A DNA stretch of 64,000 nucleotides from Escherichia coli (GCF_046105845.1 NZ_CP151004.1), one strand, 5' to 3'; shown: positions 4,583 through 64,000, counted from the first letter of the stretch. The notes: generated by a model not told the origin, from the letters alone. Translations and numbers: made by a program.

Positions 4583-4594
4583 TTAAAAATAACA

Positions 4595-4610: not shown

Positions 4611-4625
4611 TGTAGAGGGATTTTT

Positions 4626-11442: not shown

Positions 11443-15203
<3,761 letters not shown>

Positions 15204-15232
<29 letters not shown>

Positions 15233-15533: not shown

Positions 15534-15541
15534 TTCCCGCG

Positions 15542-15931: not shown

Positions 15932-15988
15932 GTTCTCCACCTGCAAAAAAGCCCCGGATAATCGGGGCAAATGATGAGTATCGTCCTG

Positions 15989-16732: not shown

Positions 16733-16742
16733 TACCACCTCC

Positions 16743-17719: not shown

Positions 17720-17730
17720 CCCACACCTCT

Positions 17731-18322: not shown

Positions 18323-18408
18323 AACTGTCTCCGCACAGCCCCGTTCAGGGGCTGATTTCAGGTACAAAAAAAGCCCTTACGGGCCATCAGAGTTGTTGTC
18401 TGCGACGT

Positions 18409-20367: not shown

Positions 20368-20380
20368 CCTGAACCAGGAA

Positions 20381-21889
20381 TTATTCTTCGGACTGGTCGT
20401 CGGTGTGCTGCGGCTCCTGTCGTTTCGTTGCGGCACTGCTGCCTCCTTTATCACTGGCCGGATCGGTATCAAATACCAGATCCAGCTTGCGGTTTTCATC
20501 AATTTCGGCCTTGCGCCGACGTTTGACATCATCCGGATTACGACCACCTGCACGTACCCAGTCTGATTCTGTCGCCGCTCCACCACGAATCTGAATTTTC
20601 CAGGCCTCAGCCTCCTTAACAGGGTCAATCCACGGCATCACCGGTCCGGAATACACCGCGGTATACAGTGAAGAACGATCAAGATCGCGGGGTAGCCTGA
20701 TAACACCGGATGCCACAGCCTGTTTCAGCCAGGCACGATACATCGGGCGGGTGACGGCACCAATAAACCAGTCCTGCAGGATCAGGTAGCCATCAGTGGA
20801 TTCAACCAGCTCCTGACGCTGGGCGCTGTAAGTGCCGTTATAGTTGCGCGCTGTACTGGAAAAACTCAGACGACTGCCCGCCGCCACGGCACGCAACTGA
20901 CCATTACGAAAAGTTTCAAGATTAGGATTGGGGCGATCCGACTTCACCATTCCGATTTCTTCGCCGGGTTTCAGATCGTCGTAAATAATGCCTGGCTGAA
21001 TGGTAAGCTCGCGTTCCTTATCCTTGCTGCCATTACCATCCGGTTCATAGCTCTGCCCGTCGCCTTTCCGGATGTACATCCCCAGAGCAGCGGCGATCCT
21101 TGCTGCAGTCAGCTCAGAATCTTCATACTCTTTCAGGGCACTGAGGCGGATCAGCACACCGGACAACAAAGACGTCCCGCGCATCTGGTGCAGACGGCGA
21201 ACAAATTTAAGATGCAGCATTCGCTCTGCATCCACTTCTTTGGTTTCCATCTGCCGTCCGGATACGGGACGGCTTTTATACACCAGATATTTTTCGGGAC
21301 GCCCCCAGTCATCAACAAACACGCCCTGATTCAGCCTGTTGCTCTCATCACTGGTCATGGGAATAAAGTCCGGCTCGAGCGCCTCCAGCCAGAAATGAAC
21401 ACCGGCAGAAGGCGTCAGGCTGTTTATGCGCCCGGAAACCATCTGGGCAAACACCTCACCATCGCGCAGCCAGGTACGCAACATCAGACGTTCCAGCATC
21501 GGACGGGTAAACTGCCCGGTGACTTCCGGACTGACAGACCATTCACTCCATCGGGTGCGTATCTCCGCTGCCAGATCACGGGCAATGGCCCCATTGCGTA
21601 ATACCGGATGTGGCTCGACAATAATCCCGTTTTTCCCCACCACCCGTTCTTCCAGCTTGTCAAATACACCAATGACCAGATCGTGGTTGTTATCAAGGTA
21701 ACGGGCCTGCTCACGTAACGACACGGCCCCGTACTGGCTTAACTGGTCGGCAGTTCGGTTTTCCCGCCGGGCTTTGTGTGTCCGCGTCGTTTTTACGGCC
21801 TCATAAGCCTGGATCACCGCACGGGAACGCAGCCTTGCCGCTTTCCATCCTGGTGAAAAAACGCCAATCACATCATCAAGAATTGCCAT
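20381..21889 (-). CDS. portal protein (lambda B family)
   Basis: ORF 20381-21961, ~500 aa, between W-like gene and protease-capsid gene; start MAILDDVIG overlaps the W stop. Confidence 0.8.
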   Translation of the reverse strand: MAILDDVIGVFSPGWKAARLRSRAVIQAYEAVKTTRTHKARRENRTADQLSQYGAVSLREQARYLDNNHDLVIGVFDKLEERVVGKNGIIVEPHPVLRNGAIARDLAAEIRTRWSEWSVSPEVTGQFTRPMLERLMLRTWLRDGEVFAQMVSGRINSLTPSAGVHFWLEALEPDFIPMTSDESNRLNQGVFVDDWGRPEKYLVYKSRPVSGRQMETKEVDAERMLHLKFVRRLHQMRGTSLLSGVLIRLSALKEYEDSELTAARIAAALGMYIRKGDGQSYEPDGNGSKDKERELTIQPGIIYDDLKPGEEIGMVKSDRPNPNLETFRNGQLRAVAAGSRLSFSSTARNYNGTYSAQRQELVESTDGYLILQDWFIGAVTRPMYRAWLKQAVASGVIRLPRDLDRSSLYTAVYSGPVMPWIDPVKEAEAWKIQIRGGAATESDWVRAGGRNPDDVKRRRKAEIDENRKLDLVFDTDPASDKGGSSAATKRQEPQHTDDQSEE

Positions 21890-22107
21890 CAGAACCTCGC
21901 AAGCCGGTACCCGGGATGCCCCCGTCGTCGTGTAATCAGAGCCGCAAGGCGGCGCTCCCACTCCTGCCGTCCCTGCCGGATCTCAGATAAGTTTTCCATG
22001 GTCATCTGCTGACCATTAAAGGTGACGGATTTTCCGTCCAGCACCGCCATTTCAGCTTCCGTATAACGCTGAATCATGGCTTCGATATCATTCTGGTTCA
22101 TAACCAT
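21889..22107 (-). CDS. head-tail joining protein, lambda W-like
   Basis: 72 aa ending RRRGHPGYRLARF, cf. lambda W C-terminus RRRGPAGFYV. Confidence 0.75.
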   Translation of the reverse strand: MVMNQNDIEAMIQRYTEAEMAVLDGKSVTFNGQQMTMENLSEIRQGRQEWERRLAALITRRRGHPGYRLARF

Positions 22108-24200
22108 CCTCCGGAAGTCAGCCAGGGGTTAACATCGTCAGTTACTGTTTTCTTCCGTTTTTGTTTTTTAACAGGCGTGGATACCGGTTCCGGTGTGGGT
22201 GACGGTTCGGTACTGTCCGGGACACACTCCAGCCAGGTTTCCCGGCTCGCCCACTCCGGTGCATCCGGCCAGCGGATCTTTTCGTATCCATGCAGAATGA
22301 CCAGAGCCTCGGCATACACCATCAGGTCAAAAGCTTCGTTGGCACCGCGACCCGGCTTACTCCATTTCCCGTCACTGCTCCGCTCTTCATACGTCAGTTC
22401 GTCGTAAAACCAGCTCCCCAGCCAGTCAGGGAAATGCACATAGCCGGGACCTGGCGAGTCACGCCATAACGCGTTATTCACCCGGTCTTTCAGGGCATCC
22501 GTCTGAAGAAGCCAGAGCGGTACATCACCTGCGGCCTGCGCCCGTCGGCCCGTTCGTCCGGTGTTATCAGGGAATGTACGGGTGATCAGTTTTGCGCGCC
22601 GGATGCTGTCGCCCTTAAACAGGTAAATACGTTTACCAAGGCCATCACGACGGCAACGACGCCAGAATTTATAGGCATTATCAGTGACTCCGTCTTCACC
22701 GCCGGAGTCCACCGCCATTGCCATCAGTCGCATTTGTTGAGAAGGATCGGAGGCCAGCGGCCAGCTTTTATGAAAAACATCCGTCAGCAGGACATCCCAG
22801 TCTTCCGGATAGCTGGCCGGATCAATTCGCTGGCTCTCCCCGTCGCTGTCACCGCGCAATGACTGCGTGATGTTGTAACGATCAATAATCCAGCGTTCGC
22901 CACGGCTGCCATAGCCCGTTACCTGAACCACAAAACGGCGATGACGTCCCGCCTGCACATCAACTGTCGCCACCAGGAAATTAACGCCATCCGGCACACT
23001 GCGGGAAGGAACTGGCTCTGCCCGCTGCTCAAGCAGTTCACTTTTTCGTTGCTCCATGCTGGCACGGGGAAGATAAGGTAATCCCCAGTCGGTATTGATA
23101 ACCGTCTTGAGTGTTTCTTCACTTCCGGTTGTCTCGTATTCCTGTTCTGCAGCAAGCAGTTTGTAAACGAGTTGCGAGAGTGTCTGGTAAGCAGCTGCCG
23201 GACCCTCCATCCAGAATGACGCAATACGTGAGCGTCGGGGATCACCATAACGACTGCCATCCGCATTGATGGATTCACCATCCCGCAACCAGACCCCACG
23301 TCCGTTCAGCTCACGTTTTTGTTCAGGCATAATCCGTCCTGAACAGGAAGGACACTGAATATAAGCCGCCTCACTTGCCAGCACGGGATCGGCAATATCA
23401 CGGAAACCAGCAACCACATCGCCGCAGGGCTGAAAATACTCACCACAGTGTGGACAGGGCCAGTACCAGCGACGGCGATCGCCACGGTTATAGAGCGACA
23501 GTATCCCCGTGGTTGGTGGAGCCTCATGCGGTGAAGTCCGTCGCCATTTCACATCCTTCACATCCCTGCCGGGGGAACTCTCCACCAGCGTCATACCACT
23601 GGACATAAATGTGGTGGTACGTTTTGAGGCAAGAGAGAAGGCATCCCCCTCGCCATCAATATCTTCCGGAAAACGGTCATAATCCGTCAGCGCCACGCAT
23701 TTATAATCTGATGAGGACATGATATTGACTGACGGCCAGCCGATTTTCAGGTAGTTGCCAGCAAGGAATGTTCTGTCATAAACGTTGTTGTCATTTTTGT
23801 TCGGACTCAGGCGACTGACCACTTCCGGGCTGACGCGAAACGTTCTGGCAAGTCGTTTTTTGGAGTGTTCGCGGGCTTTTTCCTCCGTCATCTGAATGAT
23901 CAGCATATCAGCAGGATCGCAAATCACGTTGTAAATCACCCAGCCGTCAATCAGGCCGATAGTCTTGCCAGTTCGTGCCGGGCCAACAAATATCACTGCG
24001 TCGTATTCACGCGAGGCCAGGCAGTTCATCGGCTCAATAACATACGGTGCCACCAGCGGATCCCACGGGACTGAGTTCCCGGCCCCCATGGGCACCCGCA
24101 TATACTGAGCAACGGCATCAGCAACCCGCATTCGTCTCGGTGCGCGAAGGATATAACCTGAATCGGTTCGTGCTGCCTTTGCGGTTTCCTGATTCAGCAT
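22098..24200 (-). CDS. terminase large subunit (lambda A family)
   Basis: 700 aa; Walker A-like VGPARTGKT near the N-terminus; gene order after the small subunit. Confidence 0.85.
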   Translation of the reverse strand: MLNQETAKAARTDSGYILRAPRRMRVADAVAQYMRVPMGAGNSVPWDPLVAPYVIEPMNCLASREYDAVIFVGPARTGKTIGLIDGWVIYNVICDPADMLIIQMTEEKAREHSKKRLARTFRVSPEVVSRLSPNKNDNNVYDRTFLAGNYLKIGWPSVNIMSSSDYKCVALTDYDRFPEDIDGEGDAFSLASKRTTTFMSSGMTLVESSPGRDVKDVKWRRTSPHEAPPTTGILSLYNRGDRRRWYWPCPHCGEYFQPCGDVVAGFRDIADPVLASEAAYIQCPSCSGRIMPEQKRELNGRGVWLRDGESINADGSRYGDPRRSRIASFWMEGPAAAYQTLSQLVYKLLAAEQEYETTGSEETLKTVINTDWGLPYLPRASMEQRKSELLEQRAEPVPSRSVPDGVNFLVATVDVQAGRHRRFVVQVTGYGSRGERWIIDRYNITQSLRGDSDGESQRIDPASYPEDWDVLLTDVFHKSWPLASDPSQQMRLMAMAVDSGGEDGVTDNAYKFWRRCRRDGLGKRIYLFKGDSIRRAKLITRTFPDNTGRTGRRAQAAGDVPLWLLQTDALKDRVNNALWRDSPGPGYVHFPDWLGSWFYDELTYEERSSDGKWSKPGRGANEAFDLMVYAEALVILHGYEKIRWPDAPEWASRETWLECVPDSTEPSPTPEPVSTPVKKQKRKKTVTDDVNPWLTSGGWL

Positions 24201-24691
24201 TACTCCTCCTGCTGTAATTCCTCCTCATCATCCGCACCTGCTTCGGTCACCCGCAGGGCTATCTGATCGCGCAGATCATCAATAATGGACTGAACACGGC
24301 TCACAGCGGCAGGCTGCAGGCCGCAGTCACGTTCCAGAATATCCGGTAATGTCTCCAGCACCTGCACGACCGCTTTTGCCCAGATGGCAAACTCCCGTCT
24401 GACATCACTGGCCGGAATGAGTTGTGCCGTTTCCTGTTCGAACTTAAGACGCTCACGTTCAGACTGATACCAGGCTTTGCGTTCATGTGGATCCATTTCG
24501 CCCTCAGCAACCGGCGGTGGTAACCCCATAAATTCAGTCAGAATATCGGTCAACCGGTATAGCTTGAGTTTGTCATGTCCACCAGCGGGACGAATGTTTT
24601 TCAGTCTTGCCACGACAGTCTGGCGGTGCAGACCAGATAAAGCCGCCAGTTGATTAATATTCAGCACCAGGTTTTTCAACTCATGATCCAT
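24200..24691 (-). CDS. terminase small subunit (lambda Nu1-like)
   Basis: 163 aa; N-terminal wHTH-like MDHELKNLVLNINQLAALSGLHRQTV; immediately upstream of the large subunit. Confidence 0.7.
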   Translation of the reverse strand: MDHELKNLVLNINQLAALSGLHRQTVVARLKNIRPAGGHDKLKLYRLTDILTEFMGLPPPVAEGEMDPHERKAWYQSERERLKFEQETAQLIPASDVRREFAIWAKAVVQVLETLPDILERDCGLQPAAVSRVQSIIDDLRDQIALRVTEAGADDEEELQQEE

Positions 24692-24699
24692 ATTTCCTC

Positions 24700-24950
24700 C
24701 GGAGAGCTTTAAACATGCATCGTGCGAACAACTTTAAGAAAACGCGTTCGATGTCGAACAAAAAACACTCAATTCGACATACAAAAAACAAACAACCATT
24801 AATAATCAATAAGATGCAAAGATGATGGTGGCCGATAAGAATGCAAAAACTAGCCTTTTTCCGCGACGCTCCCGCCCCGTGGCAGGGCCCCCCCCCAGGG
24901 AGGACCCGACAGCCTGACAACCGTGACGAGCATCTGAAACAGAGCTTTAC
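24700..24950. other. putative lambdoid cos/terminase-binding region
   Basis: Position directly upstream of Nu1-like gene; repeated tcgaac/ttcgacat units followed by A tracts and a G/C-rich block (gggcccccccccaggg). Confidence 0.3.
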
Positions 24951-25244
24951 ATAATGGCGTGGGGATAATTCAGAAGGACATCACAGCATGCCCACACAAA
25001 TTAGTGTGAGTGTCCTGTTTCTTACTACGCGCAGGACTGACGAGCATGAGGGGAAAATACGCGAACCGAAATGCCTTATCTTCAGAAATGCAGCCGGCAT
25101 CCGAACTGGACGATATTGTAAATTCACCTAAATACGAGGCATTGCTGTAGTTGAATTGCAGTACTGTATTAGCCTGACAGTGACAGAATACGATATTGAC
25201 TCTGTCACTTGTGAAATGGTCAGAATGGTTAGCAGTTATGGTGA

Positions 25245-25451
25245 TCAGTCAACCACCAGGGAATAATCCTTCGTATTCTTATCGTGCTTTACTAACGCGG
25301 CCTCAATTGCCCTGAATGCTTCCAGAGATACTTGATGTTCTATACATGCAATTACAACATCCGGGTAACCCATCGAAATGGTGCTATTAAGCATAGTTTT
25401 TACACGAACCTGCTCCTGGGAGGGGGCATCAGTGTATTGATCTTTATGCAT
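25245..25451 (-). CDS. hypothetical small protein at the lambdoid/186-like junction
   Basis: 68-aa ORF with ATG start; no recognisable motif. Confidence 0.3.
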
Positions 25452-25775
25452 TTTGTCGCTCCATGCGTTTGCTCTTCACTTGCGGCTAAAAATATAACGT
25501 CAAATCACTCAGCATGAAAGAGTGAAAGTTTCAGCGCGTTTCCCTTACATAATCTGTCGTTTGTATTCTCTTCAGGCATACCGGAAAGACTAGGTATTGT
25601 CACACAACCAATACCATCGACAATCGAGATTTATATCTATTCGGTAATGTTTAAATATAACAAAACCCCGTAAAAACGAGGTTTATGGGTATTTTGTTGT
25701 CTGAAATTTATGCCGTTTAAAATCATGACGTTAGAAGCACTGTTTTTTAACGATGGCGACAAAATGGCGGCAGCG

Positions 25776-46804: not shown

Positions 46805-47832
46805 TGGGAAAGAGTAAGAAGAACCGCGCTGCGGCGACGAAACAGATCCAGCATAAAAACCAGACTTCAGCCGAAGCATTCAGCTTCGGTGATCCCGTTC
46901 CTGTTCTGGACCGCCGCGAACTGCTGGACTATGTGGAATGCGTACAGATGGACCGTTGGTATGAGCCACCAGTGAGTTTCGACGGCCTGGCGCGAACCTT
47001 CCGCGCCGCCGTACACCACAGCTCACCGATTGCAGTAAAGTGCAACATTCTGACCAGCACCTATATCCCTCACCCGTTGCTCAGCCAGCAGGCTTTTTCA
47101 CGTTTTGTGCAGGACTATCTGGTATTTGGTAATGCCTACCTGGAGAAACGCACGAACCGCTTCGGTGAAGTTATCGCCCTTGAACCTGCCCTGGCAAAAT
47201 ACACTCGACGCGGATTAGACCTGGATACCTACTGGTTTGTGCAATACGGTATGGCAACCCAGCCGTATCAGTTCACGAAAGGCAGCATCTTTCATCTGAT
47301 GGAACCGGATATTAATCAGGAGATCTACGGCCTGCCTGGCTATCTTTCTGCTATTCCATCCGCTCTGCTCAACGAGTCCGCCACGCTGTTCCGCCGGAAG
47401 TATTACATTAACGGCAGTCATGCAGGCTTCATCATGTACATGACCGATGCCGCGCAAAACCAGGAAGATGTGAACAACCTCCGCAACGCGATGAAAAGCG
47501 CCAAAGGTCCGGGCAATTTCCGCAACCTGTTTATGTACTCGCCTAACGGCAAAAAAGATGGCATTCAGATTATCCCGTTATCGGAAGTCGCGGCGAAGGA
47601 TGAGTTTTTGAATATCAAGAACGTGAGCCGGGACGACATGATGGCAGCACACCGTGTGCCGCCACAAATGATGGGGATTATGCCTAATAATGTTGGGGGA
47701 TTTGGGGATGTGGAGAAGGCGAGCTTGGTCTTTGTTCGTAATGAACTGATTCCTTTACAAAAAAGACTGATGGAAGTAAATGTCTGGCTCAATGAAGAAG
47801 TGATTGTATTCAATAGATACATTTTAGAGTAA
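46801..47832 (+). CDS. Q: portal protein (P2 gpQ-like)
   Basis: 343 aa. Confidence 0.9.
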   Translation: MMGKSKKNRAAATKQIQHKNQTSAEAFSFGDPVPVLDRRELLDYVECVQMDRWYEPPVSFDGLARTFRAAVHHSSPIAVKCNILTSTYIPHPLLSQQAFSRFVQDYLVFGNAYLEKRTNRFGEVIALEPALAKYTRRGLDLDTYWFVQYGMATQPYQFTKGSIFHLMEPDINQEIYGLPGYLSAIPSALLNESATLFRRKYYINGSHAGFIMYMTDAAQNQEDVNNLRNAMKSAKGPGNFRNLFMYSPNGKKDGIQIIPLSEVAAKDEFLNIKNVSRDDMMAAHRVPPQMMGIMPNNVGGFGDVEKASLVFVRNELIPLQKRLMEVNVWLNEEVIVFNRYILE

Positions 47833-47838
47833 AAAAAT

Positions 47839-47856
47839 GGGCACCATGAGGTGCCC
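47839..47856 (-). terminator. rho-independent terminator of the 474-aa NTPase gene
   Basis: Hairpin gggcacc-atga-ggtgccc followed on the minus strand by a T7 run. Confidence 0.7.
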
Positions 47857-47862
47857 AAGTTG

Positions 47863-49287
47863 TTACTTACGTGTTTCAACTATATTCAGCCCCTTATAAA
47901 GGCTTTGATGGATATATACAGAACCAGTATTTGGCAACATTAAATCAGCATCTTCACATCGGAATCTAGCCGTACCGGAATTGCCCAACCGGACACCAAT
48001 CACAGAAGCATTAAATAGAGTTTTCATCAATTCACGAGAAGTATAGCGCTTACAAAGGTCAGGCGCTTTCTCTTCAATCTTACTGATGAATTCTTCTGTA
48101 GAATTATATCTATGCTGCGTCTGACGTAAAGATTCCAATAGCTCACCAAAATGAGGGTAGAGCCTTTTGTATTCTTGTTTTAAGTCCTCAACTTTCCAAG
48201 CGCTGTACCGTTCTTCAGCTATTCTAATTATATCCTTTTTTATTTCAGAAGCATTAGCATCACAGCGTTTTTGGCATTCTTGCAAAAACTGAATAACTTC
48301 TCTTGGGCGCAAAAATGTGCGCTTCACCAAATAGTTAAACGGTGAAATACTCCCTCTCATTTCACCTTCCTCAAAAATATCATCTATAGTTATATTTTCC
48401 GGCAATCTGGCGTTCACCATATCTTTCAACAACTCTGGTGTCCAGATTATTTCTTCTTCAATTGCTCGGTGTTTATCTTTATCATCAAATTCCAGCCCTT
48501 GATAAATATCAGAGCGTAAAAATGTTACAATATGAATACCTTTGGCTCTAGTATCAGAATAACTATCATTAATATCTTTTGTTGCCTTCAACAAGCCAAT
48601 CAAAAGGCTTTTGGCATCATCCGATCCATCCCAAGAATCATCTAATCGATCAGTGGCAATTAGCACCCCAATATCTGTACAAATTTCTTTAAGCTCGTCA
48701 AGGATGATTTTTATTATTTGAGGTGTCAATGGTGCTTGCGAAGCATCCTTATTAAACCCCACAGCATATCCGAAAGCCTCAAAATTGAATGAACTTAATC
48801 CCGAGAGTAACTTCCTTGCAGTTCCCAAAGTAGTTGGCGATATACCACCATAGTTATCAGAAACAAATTTTTTAATTCTAGCAAGGGCCTCCCGAGGTCT
48901 TTTCTCTGAAAATTGCCTACCTGACCTAATAATTTCTGCCGCAGCCTCAACAGCTATTGCAAATTTCCAAGCATTACAATGTGCCTGTTCGGGTAACAAC
49001 CCTTGCTCTTGATATTGTTTTAATGCTCCCCAAGCATACTGGTCTGGGGTCATGACATTTACGATAACGTCCTGCCCATATTTTGCTCTTACCAACCTTG
49101 GGAGTTGGGTAAAGATGGATGATTTCCCAGCCCCCTTTCTTCCAAGAAAATGGGCACTATAGAAACTCAGAGCTTGCTCAACTTGAGGAGTATTGATGAA
49201 ATAATCAGCCAACCTTCTATCAGCTTCAGCATCGACAGTACCAAAGTTGAGTCCCTTAACTGTAAGGCCTAACGCATCTAACCGCAC
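47863..49287 (-). CDS. P-loop NTPase of unknown family; accessory cargo between portal gene and cos
   Basis: 474 aa, GTG start with AAGGA RBS; Walker A GRKGAGKSS; possible Walker B LIATDRLDD; AT-rich by eye. Confidence 0.6.
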   Translation of the reverse strand: MRLDALGLTVKGLNFGTVDAEADRRLADYFINTPQVEQALSFYSAHFLGRKGAGKSSIFTQLPRLVRAKYGQDVIVNVMTPDQYAWGALKQYQEQGLLPEQAHCNAWKFAIAVEAAAEIIRSGRQFSEKRPREALARIKKFVSDNYGGISPTTLGTARKLLSGLSSFNFEAFGYAVGFNKDASQAPLTPQIIKIILDELKEICTDIGVLIATDRLDDSWDGSDDAKSLLIGLLKATKDINDSYSDTRAKGIHIVTFLRSDIYQGLEFDDKDKHRAIEEEIIWTPELLKDMVNARLPENITIDDIFEEGEMRGSISPFNYLVKRTFLRPREVIQFLQECQKRCDANASEIKKDIIRIAEERYSAWKVEDLKQEYKRLYPHFGELLESLRQTQHRYNSTEEFISKIEEKAPDLCKRYTSRELMKTLFNASVIGVRLGNSGTARFRCEDADLMLPNTGSVYIHQSLYKGLNIVETRK

Positions 49288-49372
49288 GATAATTCCTTAA
49301 TTGGTAAACTAAATTTGAACTTGATGCCAACAAAGATAATATCAATTTAATTAAAAAGAAAGCTGTTGCGCG

Positions 49373-49393
49373 CGCTCGTATCCCCGCCACGCC
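49373..49393 (-). other. P2/186-type cos site
   Basis: Reverse strand reads GGCGTGGCGGGGATACGAGCG, cf. remembered P2 cohesive end GGCGAGGCGGGGAAAGCAC. Confidence 0.55.
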
Positions 49394-49772
49394 TGCCCGC
49401 TTTATGCAGTGGTTTTCATGCACATGCATGACATGAGCAAAAGCCCGCCAGTTCTGGCGGATCTGAGCAAAGACGATCCTCAATCGATCATGCGATTTCA
49501 TGCAGCATAGTCATGCACTGTCAAAGAAGTAAAAATCCGTATCTGAATGGCCACTTGAAAAACGGATCATACGGGTTTACAAAGATGAATGTTCGCTGTG
49601 AACGGGAAGCGGAAGTTAACTTTCAGATAACATAATCCATATGCACGAGAACCTCTAAAATAGAATGGGACACCTAAGCGGGGTACTTACAACGATTCTT
49701 TCCATATTCACAGTTAACACTCTGTTTGGCGTATTTTTATTCAAATAGCAAACACCAATAAAAGGAGTTTCC

Positions 49773-50108
49773 ATGAACAATATTCCCCCTATACCACAGT
49801 TAGGAATTTATGTCTCAAAAATCGATCCCACCCTACGTATCACTGTAACCGATGTTGATATTGTTGATGGTGAGGATGATTCTCCTGATGATGAATTGTT
49901 TTATTTAGTCCACTGGATCGAGGGGGAAGATGAAAGTGATATGACAGCAATGGGATTTGAGCTAGACCCAGTAGAGTGGCAGGCTTTCGTTGAATCTGAG
50001 CAATTAGTGTTTGAGCGTGATCCGTACATGGATTCAATCCCCGAAAATTCAAACTTGGCAAAGATTCGGGATTTTCTCATGAAGACTAAACAGAATGATC
50101 ATTCGTAA
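49773..50108 (+). CDS. hypothetical acidic protein
   Basis: 111 aa, D/E-rich, no motif recognised. Confidence 0.4.
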   Translation: MNNIPPIPQLGIYVSKIDPTLRITVTDVDIVDGEDDSPDDELFYLVHWIEGEDESDMTAMGFELDPVEWQAFVESEQLVFERDPYMDSIPENSNLAKIRDFLMKTKQNDHS

Positions 50109-50300
50109 GTGTAAGCATCCATCAGGAAAATGGTTTTGTAAGTGAATCATCAACTTTTAGAGAGTCTCAGACACTCCCACTTCTGCTTCTGACACAAAGC
50201 GGACGATCACTTATCAAAATAACCGCCCACCTTACGCCTTATTTCACTCATTGCCCAAACTAGCCCCCATCAGAATGAATCCTCCTGGGGGCAACATTTC

Positions 50301-50534
50301 TTAATGCAGCCAGCTGTCGTCCTCCCACACCTTCTGCATAATTTTCATCACTTGTTTTCTTTCTTCATCCAGTTGCAGTCCGGTTAGTTCCACACCGTTA
50401 GAGCTACCTTTGCGAATGCGAATTACCGTTTTGGGATACAGGGGGCGCAGATTGCGGTAAAGCTCGGATTCAAGGGCGTCCAGGGTAGACTGGCTAATCT
50501 TCTGCTCTTTATCGATCATTATTTCAATGCGCAT
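50301..50534 (-). CDS. DinI-like protein (C-terminal module of a Tum-type antirepressor)
   Basis: ORF 50301-50606; MRIEIMIDKEQ...KVWEDDSWLH DinI fold signature. Confidence 0.7.
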   Translation of the reverse strand: MRIEIMIDKEQKISQSTLDALESELYRNLRPLYPKTVIRIRKGSSNGVELTGLQLDEERKQVMKIMQKVWEDDSWLH

Positions 50535-50544
50535 AAAAGTCACC

Positions 50545-50733
50545 TCAGCTGATGACATCCATTGAGCGGTTGTATTCGTGGCTTCTGATTTTTGCCATGA
50601 GTTCATCAGTCAATTCAGAAACCCACTGCAGAGCCAGCCCCTTCTCTTCATCACTACACTCACTAGCCGCTACAAGCTTAAGAAAAAAATCAATGCGCTG
50701 GAGCTTCAAAGACTCCAAAAAATAGTCCTGCAT
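50545..50733 (-). CDS. small protein upstream of DinI-like gene (Tum N-terminal-like position)
   Basis: 62 aa; LexA box in its promoter. Confidence 0.45.
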   Translation of the reverse strand: MQDYFLESLKLQRIDFFLKLVAASECSDEEKGLALQWVSELTDELMAKIRSHEYNRSMDVIS

Positions 50734-50774
50734 CTTTCCTCCTATAACACCAAAACAATACTGTACACATAACC

Positions 50775-50793
50775 ACTGTTTATATTTACAGTA
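50775..50793. promoter_or_regulatory. LexA box ACTGTTTATATTTACAGTA
   Basis: Perfect CTGT-N8-ACAG palindrome ~40 nt upstream of the 62-aa ORF. Confidence 0.7.
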
Positions 50794-50885
50794 TATAATA
50801 ATCTTACTGATGTAAAACGTTTTTTTACGTTCATCGGCCTGATATGCCTGGTATTATTAAGAGCACGAATTGTTAACCCGCGTAA

Positions 50886-56080: not shown

Positions 56081-56650
56081 ATGAATTTGGAGAAAGGCGG
56101 ACGAGGCGCTATAGAGCGCATGGTAGAAGCATATGGCTTCAAGACTCGACAGGCGTTGTGCGATCACTTAGGAATCTCTAAAAGTACTCTCGCCACACGC
56201 TATATGCGTGACTCATTCCCTGCTGAATGGGTAATCCAGTGCGCACTTGAAACGGGCGCCTCGCTTAACTGGCTCACGACCGGACATGGTTCAAAGCAAA
56301 CTTCAGGTAATACAAATACTATGGAAGTCGTTAAATATGTATTATCTGATGGAACCTTGCAGGAAGATGGTTTTTATATTTTCGATAAAGAATTTCTACC
56401 ATCTACGCTCAAAAATCCGTTTGTAATCACCGATAACAATTCCGTTTTTATTTGCGATAAAGAGTTTAACGATATTCGTGACGGCAAATGGGTAATAAGT
56501 ATTGATGCCGAAGTAACAATCCGCGATATCACTCGTTTACCTGGTGGAAGAATCTTAGTTGAAGGTGGAAATAGGGCTTTCGAATGTAAAAAAGAAGAAA
56601 TCGAAATTATTGGAAAAATTATAAGCATAACAGTTAAGTACTTTGAGTAA
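56081..56650 (+). CDS. cI: CI-type immunity repressor (186 CI-like)
   Basis: ATG at 56081 after GGAG; N-terminal HTH (…AYGFKTRQALCDHLGISKSTLATRY…) and CI-like C-domain. Confidence 0.75.
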   Translation: MNLEKGGRGAIERMVEAYGFKTRQALCDHLGISKSTLATRYMRDSFPAEWVIQCALETGASLNWLTTGHGSKQTSGNTNTMEVVKYVLSDGTLQEDGFYIFDKEFLPSTLKNPFVITDNNSVFICDKEFNDIRDGKWVISIDAEVTIRDITRLPGGRILVEGGNRAFECKKEEIEIIGKIISITVKYFE

Positions 56651-56700: not shown

Positions 56701-57624
56701 ATGTCAACTCAAAAATTAAAATTTAGCCATATCAAAAACGATCTGAAAGCAATAGTTATGCAGAATCGTGGAGGGCAAAAAGTTATTGAGCGTATACTCC
56801 TAGCCTATGGCTTCAAGTCACGACAGGCATTATGTAATCATCTAGGTATTTCCCAAAGTACTATGGCCAACAGATATGCACGTAATACCTTTCCTGCAGA
56901 TTGGGTTGTTATATGTTCCATAGAAACAGGAGCATCAATTGAATGGTTAGTTCTTGGTTCAGATACTGCTCCTTCATCAGAGCAATATTCTGAAAAACAT
57001 GCCGTTAATGGCCTTTGCAATGAAGTATACATTCCCACTATAAAGTTCGATAATGAAAAACTCATGAATTTTAACCGAGGGGGTAAGGCAACAATAGAAC
57101 GAATTGTCGAGGCTTACGGTTACAAAACGCGCCAAGCATTAGCTGATCACCTAGGTATTTCAAAAAGCACATTAGCCACACGATACATGCGTGACATTTT
57201 TCCTGCAGACTGGGTTTTGCAGTGTGCAATAGAAACGGGCCATTCTATTGAATGGATTTCATTTGGTACAGGAGAAATGAAAAACACAAAAAATAAAGAT
57301 ACTTTAACATTAGTGAAAAAAGTATTAATCAATGGCAAGTTAATAAATGATGGCTCATATTTATTTGACCCATGCTTTCTACCTTCCAATTTAAAAAATG
57401 CATTCGTAGTATCTACCGAAGACTCTGAATTAATATGTGAAATGGGTTTTAAAGATGTACATGATGGTAAGTGGCTAGTAAATATTGATGGAGAGAATTC
57501 ATTTAGAATGATAACTCGACTACCTAAAGGACGAGTTTATATTTCATCCCAAAATCACTCTTTTGAATGTTCGCTTACAGACATTGAGTTTATTGCAAAA
57601 GTTATTATAAGTTGTTTACATTAA
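56701..57624 (+). CDS. CI-repressor paralog with a duplicated N-terminal HTH domain
   Basis: 307 aa; two tandem copies of GG..IER...AYG.K.RQAL..HLGIS.ST.A.RY.R..FPA.WV, then a CI-like C-domain; AT-rich. Confidence 0.6.
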   Translation: MSTQKLKFSHIKNDLKAIVMQNRGGQKVIERILLAYGFKSRQALCNHLGISQSTMANRYARNTFPADWVVICSIETGASIEWLVLGSDTAPSSEQYSEKHAVNGLCNEVYIPTIKFDNEKLMNFNRGGKATIERIVEAYGYKTRQALADHLGISKSTLATRYMRDIFPADWVLQCAIETGHSIEWISFGTGEMKNTKNKDTLTLVKKVLINGKLINDGSYLFDPCFLPSNLKNAFVVSTEDSELICEMGFKDVHDGKWLVNIDGENSFRMITRLPKGRVYISSQNHSFECSLTDIEFIAKVIISCLH

Positions 57625-57649
57625 GTAAATTTTTCATGGAGACTTCATA

Positions 57650-59167
57650 GTGAAATGTGGTGATTGTAATTGGAACTGGGATGAAGAAACTACCTTTATA
57701 TTAGACGACGAAGAGGAAATTCTTTCCAAAGACAAACTTAATCGGAGACACTATGCAGAATATCTATATTTTTATCTTAAGGAAAAGGGGCAAAAGAACA
57801 ACACGGTAATCAACCTTAATGCAGAATGGGGAGCTGGTAAAAGTTTTTTCATAAAGAGATTTTATAACTCAATAAAAGATGCACACCCATGCGTTTACAT
57901 TGATGCCTGGAAGCAAGACTTTTCTGATGATGCATTTTTAACCCTTTTTTCTTCTTTGTCACAACAATTGCAAACATATGCAGGAAAACTTGATGCTCGA
58001 TTGATACAAAGCGGCCATGCTATCGGACGCTTTACAAAAGGTGTTCTACCTGAAATCATATCTGGCCTAATCAAGACTTATGCAGGAGTAGATAACGTAG
58101 GTGATATAGCCAAAGAAGCCTCATTAATAATGCTGAAGGAACACCAGGAAAAACTGAAGAGCATTAAGGTATTAAAAAAAGAACTAACGTTATGGTCTAG
58201 GTTGGCATATGAAAATAGTTTTTCATGTCCTATATTTATCTTTATAGATGAATTAGACAGATGCAGGCCAGATTATGCAATTTCTCTTTTAGAGATTGTT
58301 AAACATATATTCGATATTAAAAATTTTGTCTTTATTATTGCTACTGACACAGATCAATTACAACATTCAATCAAGAATGTTTACGGTAATGATTTTTCCG
58401 CAAATGACTATTTAGGCCGTTTTTTTCATAGAAGATTTACTTTAAAACAACCTGAACTTAAAGATTTAATTAATGGTGTTATTGGTGATTATATTGGTAC
58501 CGATTTTGAAAATATCACATCAAAAACATACCCACTAACAGCAACATTAGAAGACTTTTCAATAAATATTTCCAACGTATTTGAAGCATTTGGGTTAAAT
58601 CTAAGAGACTCAATCCGAAATACTGAAAGGTTAATAGACATTCTTAAATCTGATTTAGTCAAAAAGAAAGTAGATTATATTTTTATAATTTCGCTAATGA
58701 TTATATATGATAAGGATCGTCAAATTATAGATGGACTAATTGGTCGAAGAAATGCAGCACAACGTTTCACTGATTCGATAAAGCAAAGCTCCAATTTAAA
58801 AGGTGTTTCTCAAGCCATCCTTGAATTAAATCTTGATACAAATCAGCAAAGAATAGGTGTCAATTATATCTATAGAACGGCGAGCAGTAGATTATTCATC
58901 TCACAGATCGAGCCCAAAATAAATTTAACATTAATAAATTACTTAGATGTTGCATTGTATTTTATTAATAATATAAACATGCTTAAATCAAGTATAAAAA
59001 ACAATGGGCAAAATTCACTAATGATTATATCTCAACAAGGCCCTATTGATGGTGATACAGCTATAAAGTATTTGCAAGGAGCCCTTATAGAGAATGGTCT
59101 GAATACATCTTTTTATGCCTTACATAATTACATTGAATTAATTGAACTGGCCACATCATTTGATTAA
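57650..59167 (+). CDS. KAP-family P-loop NTPase
   Basis: 505 aa, GTG start after GGAG; Walker A NAEWGAGKS; Walker B IFIFIDELDRCRPDY; AT-rich by eye. Confidence 0.7.
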   Translation: MKCGDCNWNWDEETTFILDDEEEILSKDKLNRRHYAEYLYFYLKEKGQKNNTVINLNAEWGAGKSFFIKRFYNSIKDAHPCVYIDAWKQDFSDDAFLTLFSSLSQQLQTYAGKLDARLIQSGHAIGRFTKGVLPEIISGLIKTYAGVDNVGDIAKEASLIMLKEHQEKLKSIKVLKKELTLWSRLAYENSFSCPIFIFIDELDRCRPDYAISLLEIVKHIFDIKNFVFIIATDTDQLQHSIKNVYGNDFSANDYLGRFFHRRFTLKQPELKDLINGVIGDYIGTDFENITSKTYPLTATLEDFSINISNVFEAFGLNLRDSIRNTERLIDILKSDLVKKKVDYIFIISLMIIYDKDRQIIDGLIGRRNAAQRFTDSIKQSSNLKGVSQAILELNLDTNQQRIGVNYIYRTASSRLFISQIEPKINLTLINYLDVALYFINNINMLKSSIKNNGQNSLMIISQQGPIDGDTAIKYLQGALIENGLNTSFYALHNYIELIELATSFD

Positions 59168-60306: not shown

Positions 60307-60442
60307 TAACCACCACTGACCACCAACCCAACTTATTGTTTTTACTCTAAGTTATTGTTTTCATTAACCCGTTTACATAAATGGGTAATTTGTATTGTTG
60401 AATAGCATCTGATGAGAAATTGATGCTAATATTATAAACATA

Positions 60443-60616
60443 CTAGATTAAATCAATCTTGATATCATAGCTTTCAAGACCAGTCATTTTTTCCCGTGCA
60501 GTAAACTGGATACTGGTAACTTCTTTCCCGGTCTTTTTCTTAAGCTCAATGATTTTTTTTGTTATATATTCAGAAATATCTGCTTCTGTTTTTGTTTTTA
60601 ACTCTTCAATGTTCAT
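60443..60616 (-). CDS. GnsA/GnsB-family small protein
   Basis: ORF 60443-60709; MNIEELKTKTEADISEYI...FTAREKMTGLESYD matches remembered GnsB. Confidence 0.7.
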   Translation of the reverse strand: MNIEELKTKTEADISEYITKKIIELKKKTGKEVTSIQFTAREKMTGLESYDIKIDLI

Positions 60617-60788
60617 CATTTCCTCTTTTAGTCTGTTATGACTTTCCTGGTACACAGTAGTGTCAATTATATGGAGCAAACGTATAAAAGATAAGATGAA
60701 ACATCGCAATAATCAACATACGACGGTCTAAATTTCACACAAACAGATAAAGATGATTATCATTTATTATCAATGCATTAGAATCAAA

Positions 60789-61019
60789 TCAATTCAAGAG
60801 TCTCATTGCTGCTTCCAGAATTTCTTCTGAAGTTACATGTCGATCCGCTGCTACATAAATGACTTTATGATCTCCGGTCAGAGATGGAAACCCTGCAGCC
60901 ATTACAGTGAGGTGTGTTGTTTCGCCATTTGGATATTCACGCATGATGGTGTTAACTCCGGTCATCACTGGCACTACCATTGCTGGTTCAGAGTTAAAAA
61001 AAACTATTATTTTTTTCAT
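60789..61019 (-). CDS. hypothetical small prophage protein
   Basis: ORF 60789-61058, internal ATG at 61019. Confidence 0.35.
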   Translation of the reverse strand: MKKIIVFFNSEPAMVVPVMTGVNTIMREYPNGETTHLTVMAAGFPSLTGDHKVIYVAADRHVTSEEILEAAMRLLN

Positions 61020-61290
61020 AATGTTACCGTAATATGTGAGTATCCATCGACTAGACACTAAGCAAAAAAGCTCCCGAAGGAGCCTTCATTTTCACTTTCT
61101 TAAATCTAACGACAGACGGCTAACATTTAAGTATTGTGAAATATTATCAAATGTAATCATCATTGATTTACAAAAGATACATTTTGCCCCGAAAGGATTC
61201 CTGTCAGAAACATCAAAAGATGATGTTCTATACTGAGAACCATGGCAACACGGGCATCTAAAGTGAATATGGTTTGTAATATTTTCTACC

Positions 61291-61503
61291 TCAAAGTGCC
61301 ACTACATGAACAGCCGCGGGGCCTTTAGGTCCGTTCTCAATACCAAATTCGACTTCCTGATTCTCAGTTAACGTTTTGAAATCGTTGCTCTGAATAACTG
61401 AGAAATGGACAAACACATCTTTGCTACCATCTTTCGGCGTGATGAAACCAAAACCTTTTTCAGGGTTAAACCATTTCACTAAACCAGTCATTTTGTTAGA
61501 CAT
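61291..61503 (-). CDS. CspA-family cold-shock protein (CspI/CspB-like)
   Basis: [23 protein letters not shown]...VHFSVIQ RNP motifs; long AT-rich leader. Confidence 0.9.
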
Positions 61504-61866
61504 CATTATTACCTTTTGAAGAAGTTAGCCCTTGGGCAGAATGGTCCGAAAAAAAATATCAGAGAGAAAAACCAACAAGGAGATCTCAAGAGGTACAAAT
61601 AATAAAATTATAACAATGACTGCTTCAGATAATTTTGTAACAAACCAGAACACCATTAACGCATGATTAACCAACCATAGCAAGGATTACTTTTGTAAAG
61701 AAAAACACACGAATGAAACAATAGCTTTATTTATTAATAAAACGTGTCATTCTGTCTAATGACCTTTTATCTTACCCTTAAGATTTCAAGGATTTTGACT
61801 CATGGAAGAGTCCTTTTTATTTAAATTTCACATTCAGCGCTAAAAATAATCCGATTTAATATTAAT

Positions 61867-62894
<1,028 letters not shown>

Positions 62895-63215
62895 GGATAT
62901 TTATCAGGATTTATCGGCTTCAAATCCCCGGATATGTTAAATCTTACCTCACCAGTGATGGGCACTGGCGGGAGGAGGATGTCAATCTGATAAACACAGA
63001 GGTGACTATGGATTACACAAATCTACCAAAACAAACTTTTGCTGATTTAATCGCACTCAGGCAAGCAGTCGTAGCTCTAATCAACTTGTTGCCGGAGAAG
63101 GAAAAGGAATTAGTTAAAGCGCTTCTTAACAGAACTGCCGCCGATTTTTCATCATATCCACTGACAGATGACCTTGCGGACCTTCCTGAATTAATTGCAG
63201 CGTCCGCCATTAAGC

Positions 63216-63767
63216 TTACTGAAGAGATTTACCCTCCTCAAAAATCTTCACAAAATTCCTGCGAGTAACTTCAATGCAATAATCGTAAAACGCCGCAAAC
63301 TGCTCATCGCGGCGTTTTTTTTCATCTTCAGAAGGGATCAGCACCGACAATTTTTTATTCAGATCAGCGACGCTGCCCTCCAGTTTTTCAATGGGCGATT
63401 CAATATCATCTTTTTCTGACCGCAATGCCGTCGGTGGCGTCTTCAGAGAACCAGTAATTCTTCCCGGTAGCTTTCCTTTGTAGGTTATCCACACATTCTG
63501 CGCCTCTAAAATTATGGGGCGCTTTTCCGGCGACTGCTCATCCCCTACACATAACCCGGCAGCAACATCCAGGAATACCTGTCTGATTCTCATTCTGGCT
63601 GCTGCCTCATAAAACTCCAGCGCGGCACCTTCAACACGGTCCAGCGAGATGTCCAGGTCAAAAATTTCACCGTCAAAGCGTTTTTTGTCCCGTAAGGCTA
63701 CAGTTACCGCCACTTTATTCTCAAAATTGCGGACTCCTTTCACAACCAGTTCATAGTCTTGTGTCAT
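63216..63767 (-). CDS. hypothetical protein inserted between holin and endolysin
   Basis: ORF 63216-63788 (TTG); ATG at 63767 with purine-rich RBS. Confidence 0.45.
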   Translation of the reverse strand: MTQDYELVVKGVRNFENKVAVTVALRDKKRFDGEIFDLDISLDRVEGAALEFYEAAARMRIRQVFLDVAAGLCVGDEQSPEKRPIILEAQNVWITYKGKLPGRITGSLKTPPTALRSEKDDIESPIEKLEGSVADLNKKLSVLIPSEDEKKRRDEQFAAFYDYCIEVTRRNFVKIFEEGKSLQ

Positions 63768-63771
63768 TGGA

Positions 63772-63987
63772 TTACTCTCTTCTCGCAACCTTACGCCTGT
63801 CTTCTTTAATCTTGAAATAAAGGTTTGTCAGATACGTCAGCAGGCCAAAAACCAGACTACCCAGCACACCGATTGCAGCCCACTGTGACGGAGTTACTTT
63901 ATCGAGTAACTGCAATGCCCAGAAACCAGCATTACCAGCCGATGTGCCATAGGCGATACCTGTTGTTAACTTATCCATTGATTTCAT
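63772..63987 (-). CDS. holin (EssD/EssQ-like)
   Basis: [26 protein letters not shown]...[14 protein letters not shown] matches remembered EssD. Confidence 0.85.
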
Positions 63988-64000
63988 ATCCTCACCCCGA

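What the first reader, a model, noticed from the sequence alone, without database searches (positions are those of the whole stretch)
50301..50793. LexA-controlled Tum/DinI-like module next to cos; possible split antirepressor
A perfect LexA box (ACTGTTTATATTTACAGTA) precedes a 62-aa ORF that is followed 10 nt later, in another frame, by a DinI-like ORF. The combined length is about that of the single 186 Tum antirepressor, whose C-terminal part is DinI-like, so this may be a two-gene version or a frameshifted tum. It predicts SOS induction of the nested prophage.
Basis: partly seen in the sequence, partly recalled or inferred. Interest (0 to 1): 0.5.

Follow-up and report, generated by a model that had tools for sequence, protein, structure and literature searches.

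The report
Split Tum antirepressor module of prophage
This is the known DNA-damage switch of Fels-2-type P2-like prophages: a LexA-repressed promoter drives a small antirepressor gene (tumA) and a separate DinI-like gene (tumB), so it is real but ordinary.

Summary
On the minus strand a LexA box (50793-50774) overlaps the promoter of a 62-aa ORF (50733-50545). Ten nt later, in another frame, comes a 77-aa DinI-family ORF (50534-50301), about 0.9 kb from cos.

- **Homology:** profile methods, not BLASTP, show the 62-aa protein matches the N-terminal part of phage 186 Tum (hhalign 94.5%, E 7.5e-8). The second ORF matches Tum's DinI-like C-terminal part (41% identity).
- **Not a frameshift:** both ORFs are under strong purifying selection (dN/dS about 0.06). 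The junction differs between lineages (3, 10 or 11 nt; all three relative frames). The module occurs in 1125 of 5426 complete E. coli genomes.
- **Already described:** the PsP3 record annotates tumA/tumB, and Fels-2 is reported as split. The identical 62-aa gene of E. coli HS prophage DuoHS was deleted in a published study; that mutant and lexA(Ind-) both failed to lyse after mitomycin C.
- **Nested prophage:** confirmed. The P2-like element sits inside a lambdoid prophage.

One detail I did not find described in the held papers: the operator is a colicin-type pair of overlapping SOS boxes, 39/42 identical to the pesticin promoter operator.

The parts
50811..50816 (-). Putative -35 hexamer TTTACA of the tum promoter
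   Evidence: Read from the sequence. It lies 17 nt upstream of TACTGT, the same layout as the annotated p95 of phage 186 (TTCACA, 18 nt, TACTGT). The generic sigma-70 scan found no promoter here, because TACTGT matches TATAAT at only 3 of 6 positions.
50774..50793 (-). Distal LexA (SOS) box TACTGTAAATATAAACAGTG; its first six bases, TACTGT, are the putative -10
   Evidence: A TACTGT-N8-ACAGT box lies upstream of tumA homologues in all 9 loci compared, from several Peduoviridae genera. The 186 record annotates the equivalent site as a putative LexA site overlapping the -10.
50759..50778 (-). Proximal degenerate LexA box CAGTGGTTATGTGTACAGTA (GTG-N10-CAG), overlapping the distal box by 5 nt; a colicin-type double operator
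   Evidence: Conserved in Fels-2, SopEphi, Klebsiella phi13.6 and DuoHS; absent from 186, PsP3, Yersinia and ESSI-2 loci. The same arrangement lies in ColE1 about 65 nt upstream of an ATG that I take to be the colicin E1 (cea) start, since cea is not in the PLSDB gene table for that record. It also lies upstream of the colicin R, pesticin and klebicin-like genes.
50738..50743 (-). Shine-Dalgarno AGGAGG of tumA
   Evidence: Sequence; conserved in Fels-2, SopEphi and phi13.6.
50545..50733 (-). tumA: 62-aa antirepressor, homologue of the N-terminal part of 186 Tum
   Evidence: phrog_698 at 5.9e-38; 186 Tum residues 7-44 hit the same family at 2.7e-5. hhalign of the family against 186 Tum residues 5-44: probability 94.5%, E 7.5e-8. 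dN/dS 0.06. 100% identical to DuoHS WP_001154431.1, whose deletion abolished mitomycin C lysis. AF2 predicts a helical hairpin, pLDDT 88.
50541..50546 (-). Shine-Dalgarno GAGGTG of tumB, overlapping the tumA stop codon; lies in the 3' arm of a small hairpin (50556-50539)
   Evidence: Sequence. The hairpin was reported by the terminator scan. Translational coupling is an inference only.
50301..50534 (-). tumB: 77-aa DinI-family protein, homologue of the C-terminal part of 186 Tum
   Evidence: Pfam DinI PF06183 at 8.2e-23. 41% identical to 186 Tum residues 71-145, E 3e-24. NCBIfam DinI equivalog model scores 42.7 bits, below its cut-off of 111. By eye it is closely similar to PsP3 TumB. dN/dS 0.07.
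50263..50292 (-). GC-rich hairpin after tumB; possible weak terminator, at the position of 186 t95a
   Evidence: Fold at -22.1 kcal/mol for the 79-nt stretch, but z-score only -1.5 and no clear T run. Weak evidence.
49375..49393 (-). cos cohesive-end sequence GGCGTGGCGGGGATACGAG of the P2-like prophage
   Evidence: The first 13 nt are identical to the 186 cos, and the flank cataaagcgggca matches the right end of the 186 record.
56081..56650 (+). 186-type CI immunity repressor, the inferred target of TumA
   Evidence: 31% identical to 186 CI over 175 aa, E 2e-38. 91% identical to the CI of DuoHS. PGAP names the orthologue 'phage repressor protein CI'.

Best explanation
This is the SOS-induction operon of a Fels-2-type P2-like (Peduoviridae) prophage, in the split tumA/tumB form of the phage 186 tum gene.

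1. In undamaged cells LexA sits on an operator that overlaps the -10 and start region of the promoter and keeps it off.
2. DNA damage activates RecA and LexA cleaves itself, so the operon is transcribed.
3. TumA, a 62-aa helical hairpin, binds the prophage's 186-type CI repressor (56081-56650) and stops it binding its operators. The early lytic promoter is then derepressed and the prophage enters lytic growth.
4. TumB, a DinI-family protein made from the same transcript, most likely acts on RecA filaments to temper the SOS signal. The 186 record gives that role to the truncated C-terminal products of Tum.

Shown here: the sequence anatomy, the homologies, the conservation and the purifying selection. 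Shown by others on an identical allele: tumA and cleavable LexA are both needed for induction. Inferred: LexA occupancy of this operator, TumA-CI binding, and the role of TumB.
For: - Anatomy.
- The locus is 96.7% identical to Fels-2 and occurs in many Klebsiella, Salmonella and E. coli P2-like phages. It occurs in 1125 of 5426 complete E. coli genomes.
- The 186 record annotates p95, a putative LexA site over the -10, tum ('inhibits CI DNA binding') and truncated Tum products that 'modulate SOS induction'.
- The PsP3 record annotates tumA ('similar to 5' end 186 tum; UV induction of prophage') and tumB.
- TumA to Tum N-terminal homology: PHROG cross-hits and hhalign at 94.5%, E 7.5e-8.
- TumB to Tum C-terminal part, E 3e-24; Pfam DinI.
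- A LexA box is conserved upstream of tumA homologues in 9 loci with otherwise divergent flanks.
- dN/dS is 0.06-0.07 for both genes, with three junction types.
- A 186-type CI is present in the prophage.
- Literature: PMC3121763 says Fels-2 and PSP3 have tum split by a stop codon, with the PSP3 upstream gene carrying the antirepressor activity. PMC12055606 and PMC11195241 report that a start-to-stop deletion of tum in DuoHS, and lexA(Ind-), both abolish mitomycin C lysis. The deletion primer matches the window's ORF borders exactly, and the DuoHS ORF is 100% identical to the window's.
Against: - BLASTP finds no similarity between the 62-aa ORF and 186 Tum. The link rests on profiles over about 40 residues.
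- hhalign against PsP3 TumA is weak (E 0.0039, probability 8.6%).
- No Pfam or NCBIfam family covers TumA.
- No solved structure or informative fold match exists.
- The generic promoter scan finds no sigma-70 site.
- The window's CI differs from the DuoHS CI at 16 of 187 aligned positions, mostly in the C-terminal half.
- I did not check that this particular nested prophage is otherwise intact, so its inducibility is inferred, not shown.
Confidence: 0.9

Rival explanations
1. The two ORFs are a single tum gene broken by a frameshift, either a sequencing error or a pseudogene. The prophage would then have lost or weakened its SOS inducibility.
For: The combined length (139 aa) is close to that of 186 Tum (146 aa), and the ORFs are in different frames only 10 nt apart.
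Against: - The split is present in Fels-2, SopEphi, Klebsiella phages, PsP3 and DuoHS.
- Junctions are of 3, 10 or 11 nt, in all three relative frames, with TGA, TAA or TAG stops.
- tumB has its own Shine-Dalgarno sequence and ATG.
- Both ORFs show dN/dS of about 0.06-0.07 at dS of about 1.
- The same arrangement occurs in more than 1000 complete E. coli genomes.
- The identical arrangement is functional in DuoHS.
Confidence: 0.01
2. Only the DinI-like gene is the functional SOS gene, a RecA modulator carried as a moron. The 62-aa ORF would be an unrelated small protein or leader peptide with no antirepressor role.
For: BLASTP sees no Tum similarity. There is no Pfam or NCBIfam family. PGAP calls it 'hypothetical protein'.
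Against: - Profile homology to the Tum N-terminal part.
- A diverse family of more than 60 representatives with conserved D3, E7, R13, W37, E40, L41 and L45.
- Purifying selection.
- ESSI-2-type and Yersinia phages keep the LexA box and the tumA homologue but have no annotated DinI gene downstream.
- Precise deletion of the identical ORF, which leaves tumB intact, blocks induction.
Confidence: 0.03
3. TumA also, or mainly, acts in trans on repressors of other resident prophages, for example the lambdoid prophage in which this element is nested. It would then coordinate induction in the way Gifsy antirepressors do.
For: Cross-talk by LexA-controlled antirepressors is documented in Salmonella (PMC3121763). 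This P2-like prophage sits inside a lambdoid prophage that has its own LexA-boxed dinI-like gene.
Against: Nothing here bears on it directly. In PMC3121763, removing Fels-2 did not affect Gifsy induction. The natural cognate, a 186-type CI, is present in the same element.
Confidence: 0.05

Closest known systems
E. coli HS prophage DuoHS tum (ECHS_RS04495, WP_001154431.1) plus the DinI-like ECHS_RS04500
   Same: tumA is 100% identical in DNA and protein. It has the same 10-nt junction, the same distal LexA box and the same gene order A-tumA-tumB. Its deletion and lexA(Ind-) block mitomycin C induction.
   Different: The spacer of the proximal box differs by 3 nt (GGTTATACATACAG against GGTTATGTGTACAG). 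tumB has only synonymous differences. CI is 91% identical. DuoHS is integrated next to rcdA, not inside another prophage. The cargo genes differ.
Salmonella phage Fels-2 STM2728 / STM2726.1 (split tum)
   Same: 96.7% DNA identity across the module. The 62-aa and 77-aa ORFs, the 10-nt gap and the double operator are all the same. It is reported in the literature as a tum split by a stop codon.
   Different: Two amino-acid changes in TumA, and a different host genus. The record annotates the 62-aa ORF only as hypothetical.
Phage PsP3 tumA / tumB
   Same: A two-gene arrangement after gene A and near cos, with a LexA box over the promoter. TumB is closely similar. The upstream gene is reported to carry the antirepressor activity.
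   Different: - PsP3 TumA belongs to a different PHROG (1993 against 698) and is only weakly similar to the window's TumA.
- The genes are in the same frame, separated by TAG plus one codon.
- PsP3 has a single LexA box.
Phage 186 Tum (146 aa) expressed from p95
   Same: A LexA-repressed promoter with the box over a TACTGT -10. The N-terminal region is homologous to TumA and the DinI-like C-terminal region to TumB. It has the same genome position and acts on a 186-type CI.
   Different: One fused polypeptide with internal starts, instead of two genes. It has a single LexA box. Sequence identity in the N-terminal region is only about 20%.
Two overlapping SOS boxes of colicin and bacteriocin promoters (ColE1 cea, colicin R, pesticin, klebicin-like)
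   Same: The same 35-nt double operator, a distal CTG-N10-CAG and a proximal GTG-N10-CAG sharing CAGTG. The window's 42-nt operator is 39/42 identical to the pesticin one, 37/42 to colicin R and 35/42 to ColE1. In colicins two LexA dimers bind and prevent untimely expression (PMC2994835).
   Different: It drives a prophage antirepressor, not a bacteriocin. The -35 region and the downstream leader are unrelated. Binding of two LexA dimers here is untested.
Gifsy/Fels-1 dinI-antirepressor operons (GfoA, GftA, FsoA)
   Same: LexA-controlled operons that pair a DinI homologue with a small antirepressor acting by protein-protein binding.
   Different: The gene order is reversed (dinI first). The antirepressors and the target repressors are unrelated, and the phages are lambdoid.

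Membership tests
186 Tum-type LexA-controlled antirepressor module (split tumA/tumB form) | Protein homologous to the N-terminal (antirepressor) part of Tum | tested here: met
   PHROG cross-hits: window ORF to phrog_698 at 5.9e-38; 186 Tum residues 7-44 to phrog_698 at 2.7e-5; Yersinia 'tum protein' to phrog_698 at 1.2e-9. hhalign 94.5%, E 7.5e-8. BLASTP alone is negative.
186 Tum-type LexA-controlled antirepressor module (split tumA/tumB form) | DinI-like moiety, fused or encoded immediately downstream | tested here: met
   41% identity to Tum residues 71-145, E 3e-24; Pfam DinI 8.2e-23.
186 Tum-type LexA-controlled antirepressor module (split tumA/tumB form) | LexA box overlapping the promoter | tested here: met
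   Met at sequence level only. TACTGT-N8-ACAGTG lies 17 nt after TTTACA, the same layout as the annotated 186 p95. The box is conserved in 9 loci.
186 Tum-type LexA-controlled antirepressor module (split tumA/tumB form) | Position after replication gene A, at the right end near cos | tested here: met
   The 804-aa gene A homologue ends at 50886. cos is at 49393-49375. The synteny matches 186, PsP3 and Fels-2.
186 Tum-type LexA-controlled antirepressor module (split tumA/tumB form) | Cognate 186-type CI repressor in the same element | tested here: met
   31% identity to 186 CI, E 2e-38.
186 Tum-type LexA-controlled antirepressor module (split tumA/tumB form) | Binds CI and prevents operator binding; required for SOS induction | not testable with these tools
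   Published for 186 Tum (cited). For the identical DuoHS allele only the genetic requirement is published.
DinI family | Match to the DinI domain model | tested here: met
   PF06183 residues 14-76, 8.2e-23; phrog_189 at 1.5e-29.
DinI family | Orthologue of E. coli DinI (NCBIfam equivalog cut-off) | tested here: not met
   NF007893 scores 42.7 bits against a cut-off of 111. It is DinI-like, not DinI itself.
DinI family | Binds RecA filaments and modulates coprotease activity | not testable with these tools
   Inferred from the family only.
Colicin-type double (overlapping) SOS operator | Two 20-nt boxes sharing 5 nt, distal CTG-N10-CAG and proximal GTG-N10-CAG, with the colicin spacer sequences | tested here: met
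   Window TACTGTAAATATAAACAGTGGTTATGTGTACAGTA against ColE1 TGCTGTATATAAAACCAGTGGTTATATGTACAGTA. 39/42 identity to pesticin. 908 plasmid records match the operator, 778 of them over at least 80% of it.
Colicin-type double (overlapping) SOS operator | Position at or just downstream of the -10, covering the transcription start | tested here: inconclusive
   The promoter hexamers are assigned by analogy with 186 p95. No start site is mapped, and the generic scan found none.
Colicin-type double (overlapping) SOS operator | Binds two LexA dimers, giving tight repression | not testable with these tools
   Known for colicins (PMC2994835); untested here.

The most novel reading that the evidence does not exclude
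In the Fels-2 lineage, the tum promoter does not carry the single LexA box of 186 and PsP3. It carries a roughly 42-bp operator cassette essentially identical to the double overlapping SOS boxes of colicin, pesticin and klebicin promoters. The window's operator is 39/42 identical to the pesticin one, which is as close as it is to Fels-2's own. This would imply exchange of a LexA double-lock cassette between Col plasmids and P2-like phages. It would also imply that these prophages, like colicin operons, are held off more tightly and induced later or at higher damage than single-box relatives. I found no held paper that describes this.
Probability: 0.35. Interest if true: 0.4.

Novelty: already known. 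Interest (0 to 1): 0.15.

Why it matters
It explains how this nested prophage, and about a fifth of complete E. coli genomes that carry the same module, would respond to DNA-damaging antibiotics. The small antirepressor, not repressor cleavage, flips the switch.

The practical value is in annotation. The 62-aa gene is still called 'hypothetical protein' by PGAP and has no Pfam or NCBIfam model, although it is the experimentally required inducer. It can be named tumA.

The only point with research value is the colicin-type double SOS operator. It gives a testable prediction about the timing and threshold of induction compared with single-box relatives such as 186.

Tried and rejected
- **BLASTP** of the 62-aa ORF against 186 Tum found no alignment. 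Profiles were needed.
- **phmmer** against 1.84 billion representatives gave 67 hits. Almost all are stand-alone proteins of 50-100 aa, and none is a Tum-like fusion with a DinI domain.
- **Pfam and NCBIfam** gave nothing for TumA.
- **PDB sequence search** with the family profile found nothing.
- **Foldseek** of the AF2 model against PDB returned only generic helical hairpins with E above 0.8.
- **Heterology index:** I tried to rebuild the LexA matrix from sites I remembered. It did not reproduce published values (for example umuDC 1.05 against 2.77, ColE1 distal 4.73 against 7.48), so I do not use its numbers.
- **sigma-70 scan** found no promoter. The promoter is assigned by analogy with 186 p95.
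- **cos search** with the full 19-mers of 186 and P2 at up to 3 mismatches found nothing. The 13-nt core plus the flank located it.
- **Papers not held:** Bunny et al. 2002 (PMC151935) and Gillor et al. 2008 (PMC2729051).
- **Literature search** for 'TumA/TumB' returned only noise.
- **PADLOC** found nothing for the 474-aa, 111-aa and 307-aa cargo ORFs.
- **att repeats:** an exact-repeat search at the prophage ends found nothing. The 13-nt att cores differ by one base.

Full report
**Observation**

The genes lie on the minus strand. Reading 5' to 3':

- TTTACA (50816-50811), then 17 nt.
- TACTGTAAATATAAACAGTG (50793-50774), a LexA box with a perfect CTGT-N8-ACAG core.
- AGGAGG, then ATG at 50733.
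- A 62-aa ORF ending in TGA (50547-50545).
- Ten nt that carry GAGGTG, then ATG at 50534.
- A 77-aa ORF ending at 50301.

The second start is 199 nt after the first, so it is in another frame. The 101-aa ORF in the mechanical list is only an upstream in-frame extension of the 77-aa gene.

CTGT-N8-ACAG occurs three times in the window against 0.77 expected. That count is weak by itself. However, all three copies sit directly upstream of DinI-like ORFs.

**What the two ORFs are**

The 77-aa ORF is a DinI-family protein (Pfam PF06183, 8.2e-23). It is 41% identical to residues 71-145 of phage 186 Tum (E 3e-24).

The 62-aa ORF shows nothing against Tum by BLASTP, but profiles connect them:

- It belongs to phrog_698 (5.9e-38).
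- 186 Tum residues 7-44 hit that same family at 2.7e-5.
- A Yersinia phage protein annotated 'tum protein' hits it at 1.2e-9.
- All of these share hits to phrog_8554 and phrog_1993, the family of PsP3 TumA.

I aligned 28 diverse relatives taken from a search of 1.84 billion representatives. D3, E7, R13, W37, E40, L41 and L45 are conserved. That alignment matches 186 Tum residues 5-44 in hhalign with probability 94.5% and E 7.5e-8.

It is not met once profile methods are used.

**Not a frameshift**

The same split occurs in several lineages, with different junctions:

| Phage | Gap | Relative frame | Stop |
|---|---|---|---|
| Fels-2 | 10 nt | +1 | TGA |
| DuoHS | 10 nt | +1 | TGA |
| SopEphi | 11 nt | +2 | TAA |
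| Klebsiella phi13.6 | 11 nt | +2 | TAA |
| PsP3 | 3 nt | 0 | TAG |

At dS of about 1 against SopEphi and phi13.6, dN/dS is 0.06-0.07 for both genes. The module is present in 1125 of 5426 complete E. coli genomes. PGAP annotates it there as 'hypothetical protein' plus 'DinI-like family protein'. A recent indel or sequencing error cannot explain this.

**It is already known**

- The PsP3 record names the genes tumA ('similar to 5' end 186 tum; UV induction of prophage') and tumB.
[quoted passage not shown] - The window locus is 96.7% identical to Fels-2.
- The 62-aa ORF is 100% identical in DNA and protein to ECHS_RS04495 of the E. coli HS prophage DuoHS.
- In PMC12055606 (preprint PMC11195241) this 'tum' was deleted by fusing its start and stop codons. 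The primer ATAGGAGGAAAGATGTGAGGTGACTTTTATGCGCATTG matches the window's ORF borders exactly.
- That mutant, like lexA(Ind-), showed no lysis or viral foci after mitomycin C.

**Mechanism**

By analogy with the annotated 186 p95 (TTCACA, 18 nt, TACTGT, with the LexA site starting at the -10), LexA occludes the promoter. SOS-triggered LexA cleavage then releases tumA-tumB transcription.

TumA is predicted to be a two-helix hairpin (pLDDT 88). It would sequester the 186-type CI repressor encoded at 56081-56650, which is 31% identical to 186 CI and 91% to DuoHS CI. That would derepress the early lytic operon. For 186, Tum inhibition of CI is established (cited).

TumB probably modulates RecA and the SOS response. 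The 186 record gives that role to the C-terminal Tum products. The role of TumB and the TumA-CI contact are inferences.

Immediately after the first box lies CAGTGGTTATGTGTACAGTA (50778-50759), overlapping it by 5 nt. It is conserved in Fels-2, SopEphi, phi13.6 and DuoHS. It is absent from 186, PsP3, Yersinia and ESSI-2 loci, which have one box.

This 35-nt pair is the classic 'two overlapping SOS boxes' arrangement of colicin operons (PMC2994835):

- ColE1 carries TGCTGTATATAAAACCAGTGGTTATATGTACAGTA about 65 nt upstream of an ATG I take to be the colicin E1 start; cea itself is not in the PLSDB gene table for that record.
- The window's 43-nt operator matches 908 plasmid records, mostly small mobilizable Col-type plasmids.
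- In the three records checked it lies just upstream of the colicin R, pesticin and klebicin-like genes.

Identity of the window's 42-mer to other operators:

| Operator | Identity |
|---|---|
| Pesticin | 39/42 |
| Fels-2 | 39/42 |
| Colicin R | 37/42 |
| DuoHS | 36/42 |
| ColE1 | 35/42 |
| Single-box tum promoters | 22-25/42 |

Among phage records, matches over at least 80% of the operator number 56. Every one of those in the sampled listing is a P2-like Fels-2-type phage, which by position puts the match at the tum promoter. I found no held paper that mentions this.

It suggests tighter and later induction than in 186, and possibly exchange of a regulatory cassette with Col plasmids. Neither is tested.

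**Context**

- cos is at 49393-49375, 908 nt beyond tumB, so 'next to cos' holds.
- The P2-like prophage (about 25685-60393) is truly nested. Window 14000-25697 and 60381-64000 are contiguous in strain Ec1119 and others, with a 13-nt overlap.
- The two att cores in the window, ATGGGTATTTTGT and ATGGGTAATTTGT, differ by one base.
- The host element is a lambdoid prophage, with head and tail genes on one side and lysis genes on the other.

**Verdict**

This is a real, correctly interpreted and very common module that is already described and experimentally validated. Its value is mainly for annotation: the 62-aa 'hypothetical protein' is TumA. The colicin-type double operator is a modest point that I did not find in the held literature.

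Noticed in passing
window 4565-4874 (+): Two further LexA boxes, CTGTTTATTCATACAG at 4567-4582 and CTGTATACAAACACAG at 4595-4610, are separated rather than overlapping. They precede another DinI-family ORF (4626-4874, 82 aa, phrog_189 4.4e-31), just downstream of the host prfC gene (2820-4433, minus strand; identified from my own knowledge of the RF3 sequence). A serine-recombinase-like ORF follows at 6096-6686 (also my reading of the sequence). This may be the SOS-regulated dinI-like gene of the surrounding lambdoid prophage.
   Followed up: partly
window about 25685-60393: The P2-like prophage is inserted inside a lambdoid prophage, between its head/tail/terminase genes (14000-25697) and its lysis genes (60381-64000). 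The flanks are contiguous in strains Ec1119, A3, A26, N51 and GPEC1222, with a 13-nt overlap. The att cores ATGGGTATTTTGT (25685-25697) and ATGGGTAATTTGT (60381-60393) differ by one base. In E. coli HS and SOI121 the related prophage sits next to rcdA instead.
   Followed up: partly
window 47863-49287 (-): A 474-aa ORF lies between cos and the portal gene. PGAP names its homologue 'P-loop ATPase, Sll1717 family', and it hits phrog_13260. It has no PADLOC match. Only 1 of 5426 E. coli genomes covers at least 80% of the 47000-50300 region. Relatives carry other cargo at this spot, for example a TIR-domain protein in SOI121. This looks like a variable accessory or defence hotspot.
   Followed up: partly
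window 56701-59167 (+): Between cI and int there are two extra genes. One is a 307-aa protein with three repressor-like stretches (phrog_4, 2.9e-75; PGAP names it 'phage repressor protein CI'). The other is a 505-aa KAP-family P-loop NTPase that matches the PADLOC candidate defence system PDC-S20 (9.3e-78). DuoHS lacks both.
   Followed up: partly
window 49773-50108 (+): A 111-aa acidic ORF (phrog_17127, 2e-70) lies between tumB and cos on the opposite strand. It is conserved in strain SOI121, and its function is unknown.
   Followed up: no
L004 (Yersinia phage vB_YenM_06.16-2), L006 (ESSI2_ev015), L007 (Cronobacter ESSI-2): These P2-like phages keep a LexA box and a stand-alone tumA homologue, but no DinI-like gene is annotated downstream. 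Three architectures therefore exist: fused (186), split with tumB (PsP3, Fels-2 type), and tumA alone.
   Followed up: partly
window 50539-50556 (-): A small hairpin, GTCATC-AGCTGA-GGTGAC, spans the last tumA codons, the stop codon and the tumB Shine-Dalgarno sequence. The stem arms are also present in Fels-2 and DuoHS. It could couple tumB translation to tumA translation.
   Followed up: no
P0060 (217 aa): One database protein matches the TumA query in three separate stretches. It may be a tandem-repeat TumA-like protein.
   Followed up: no
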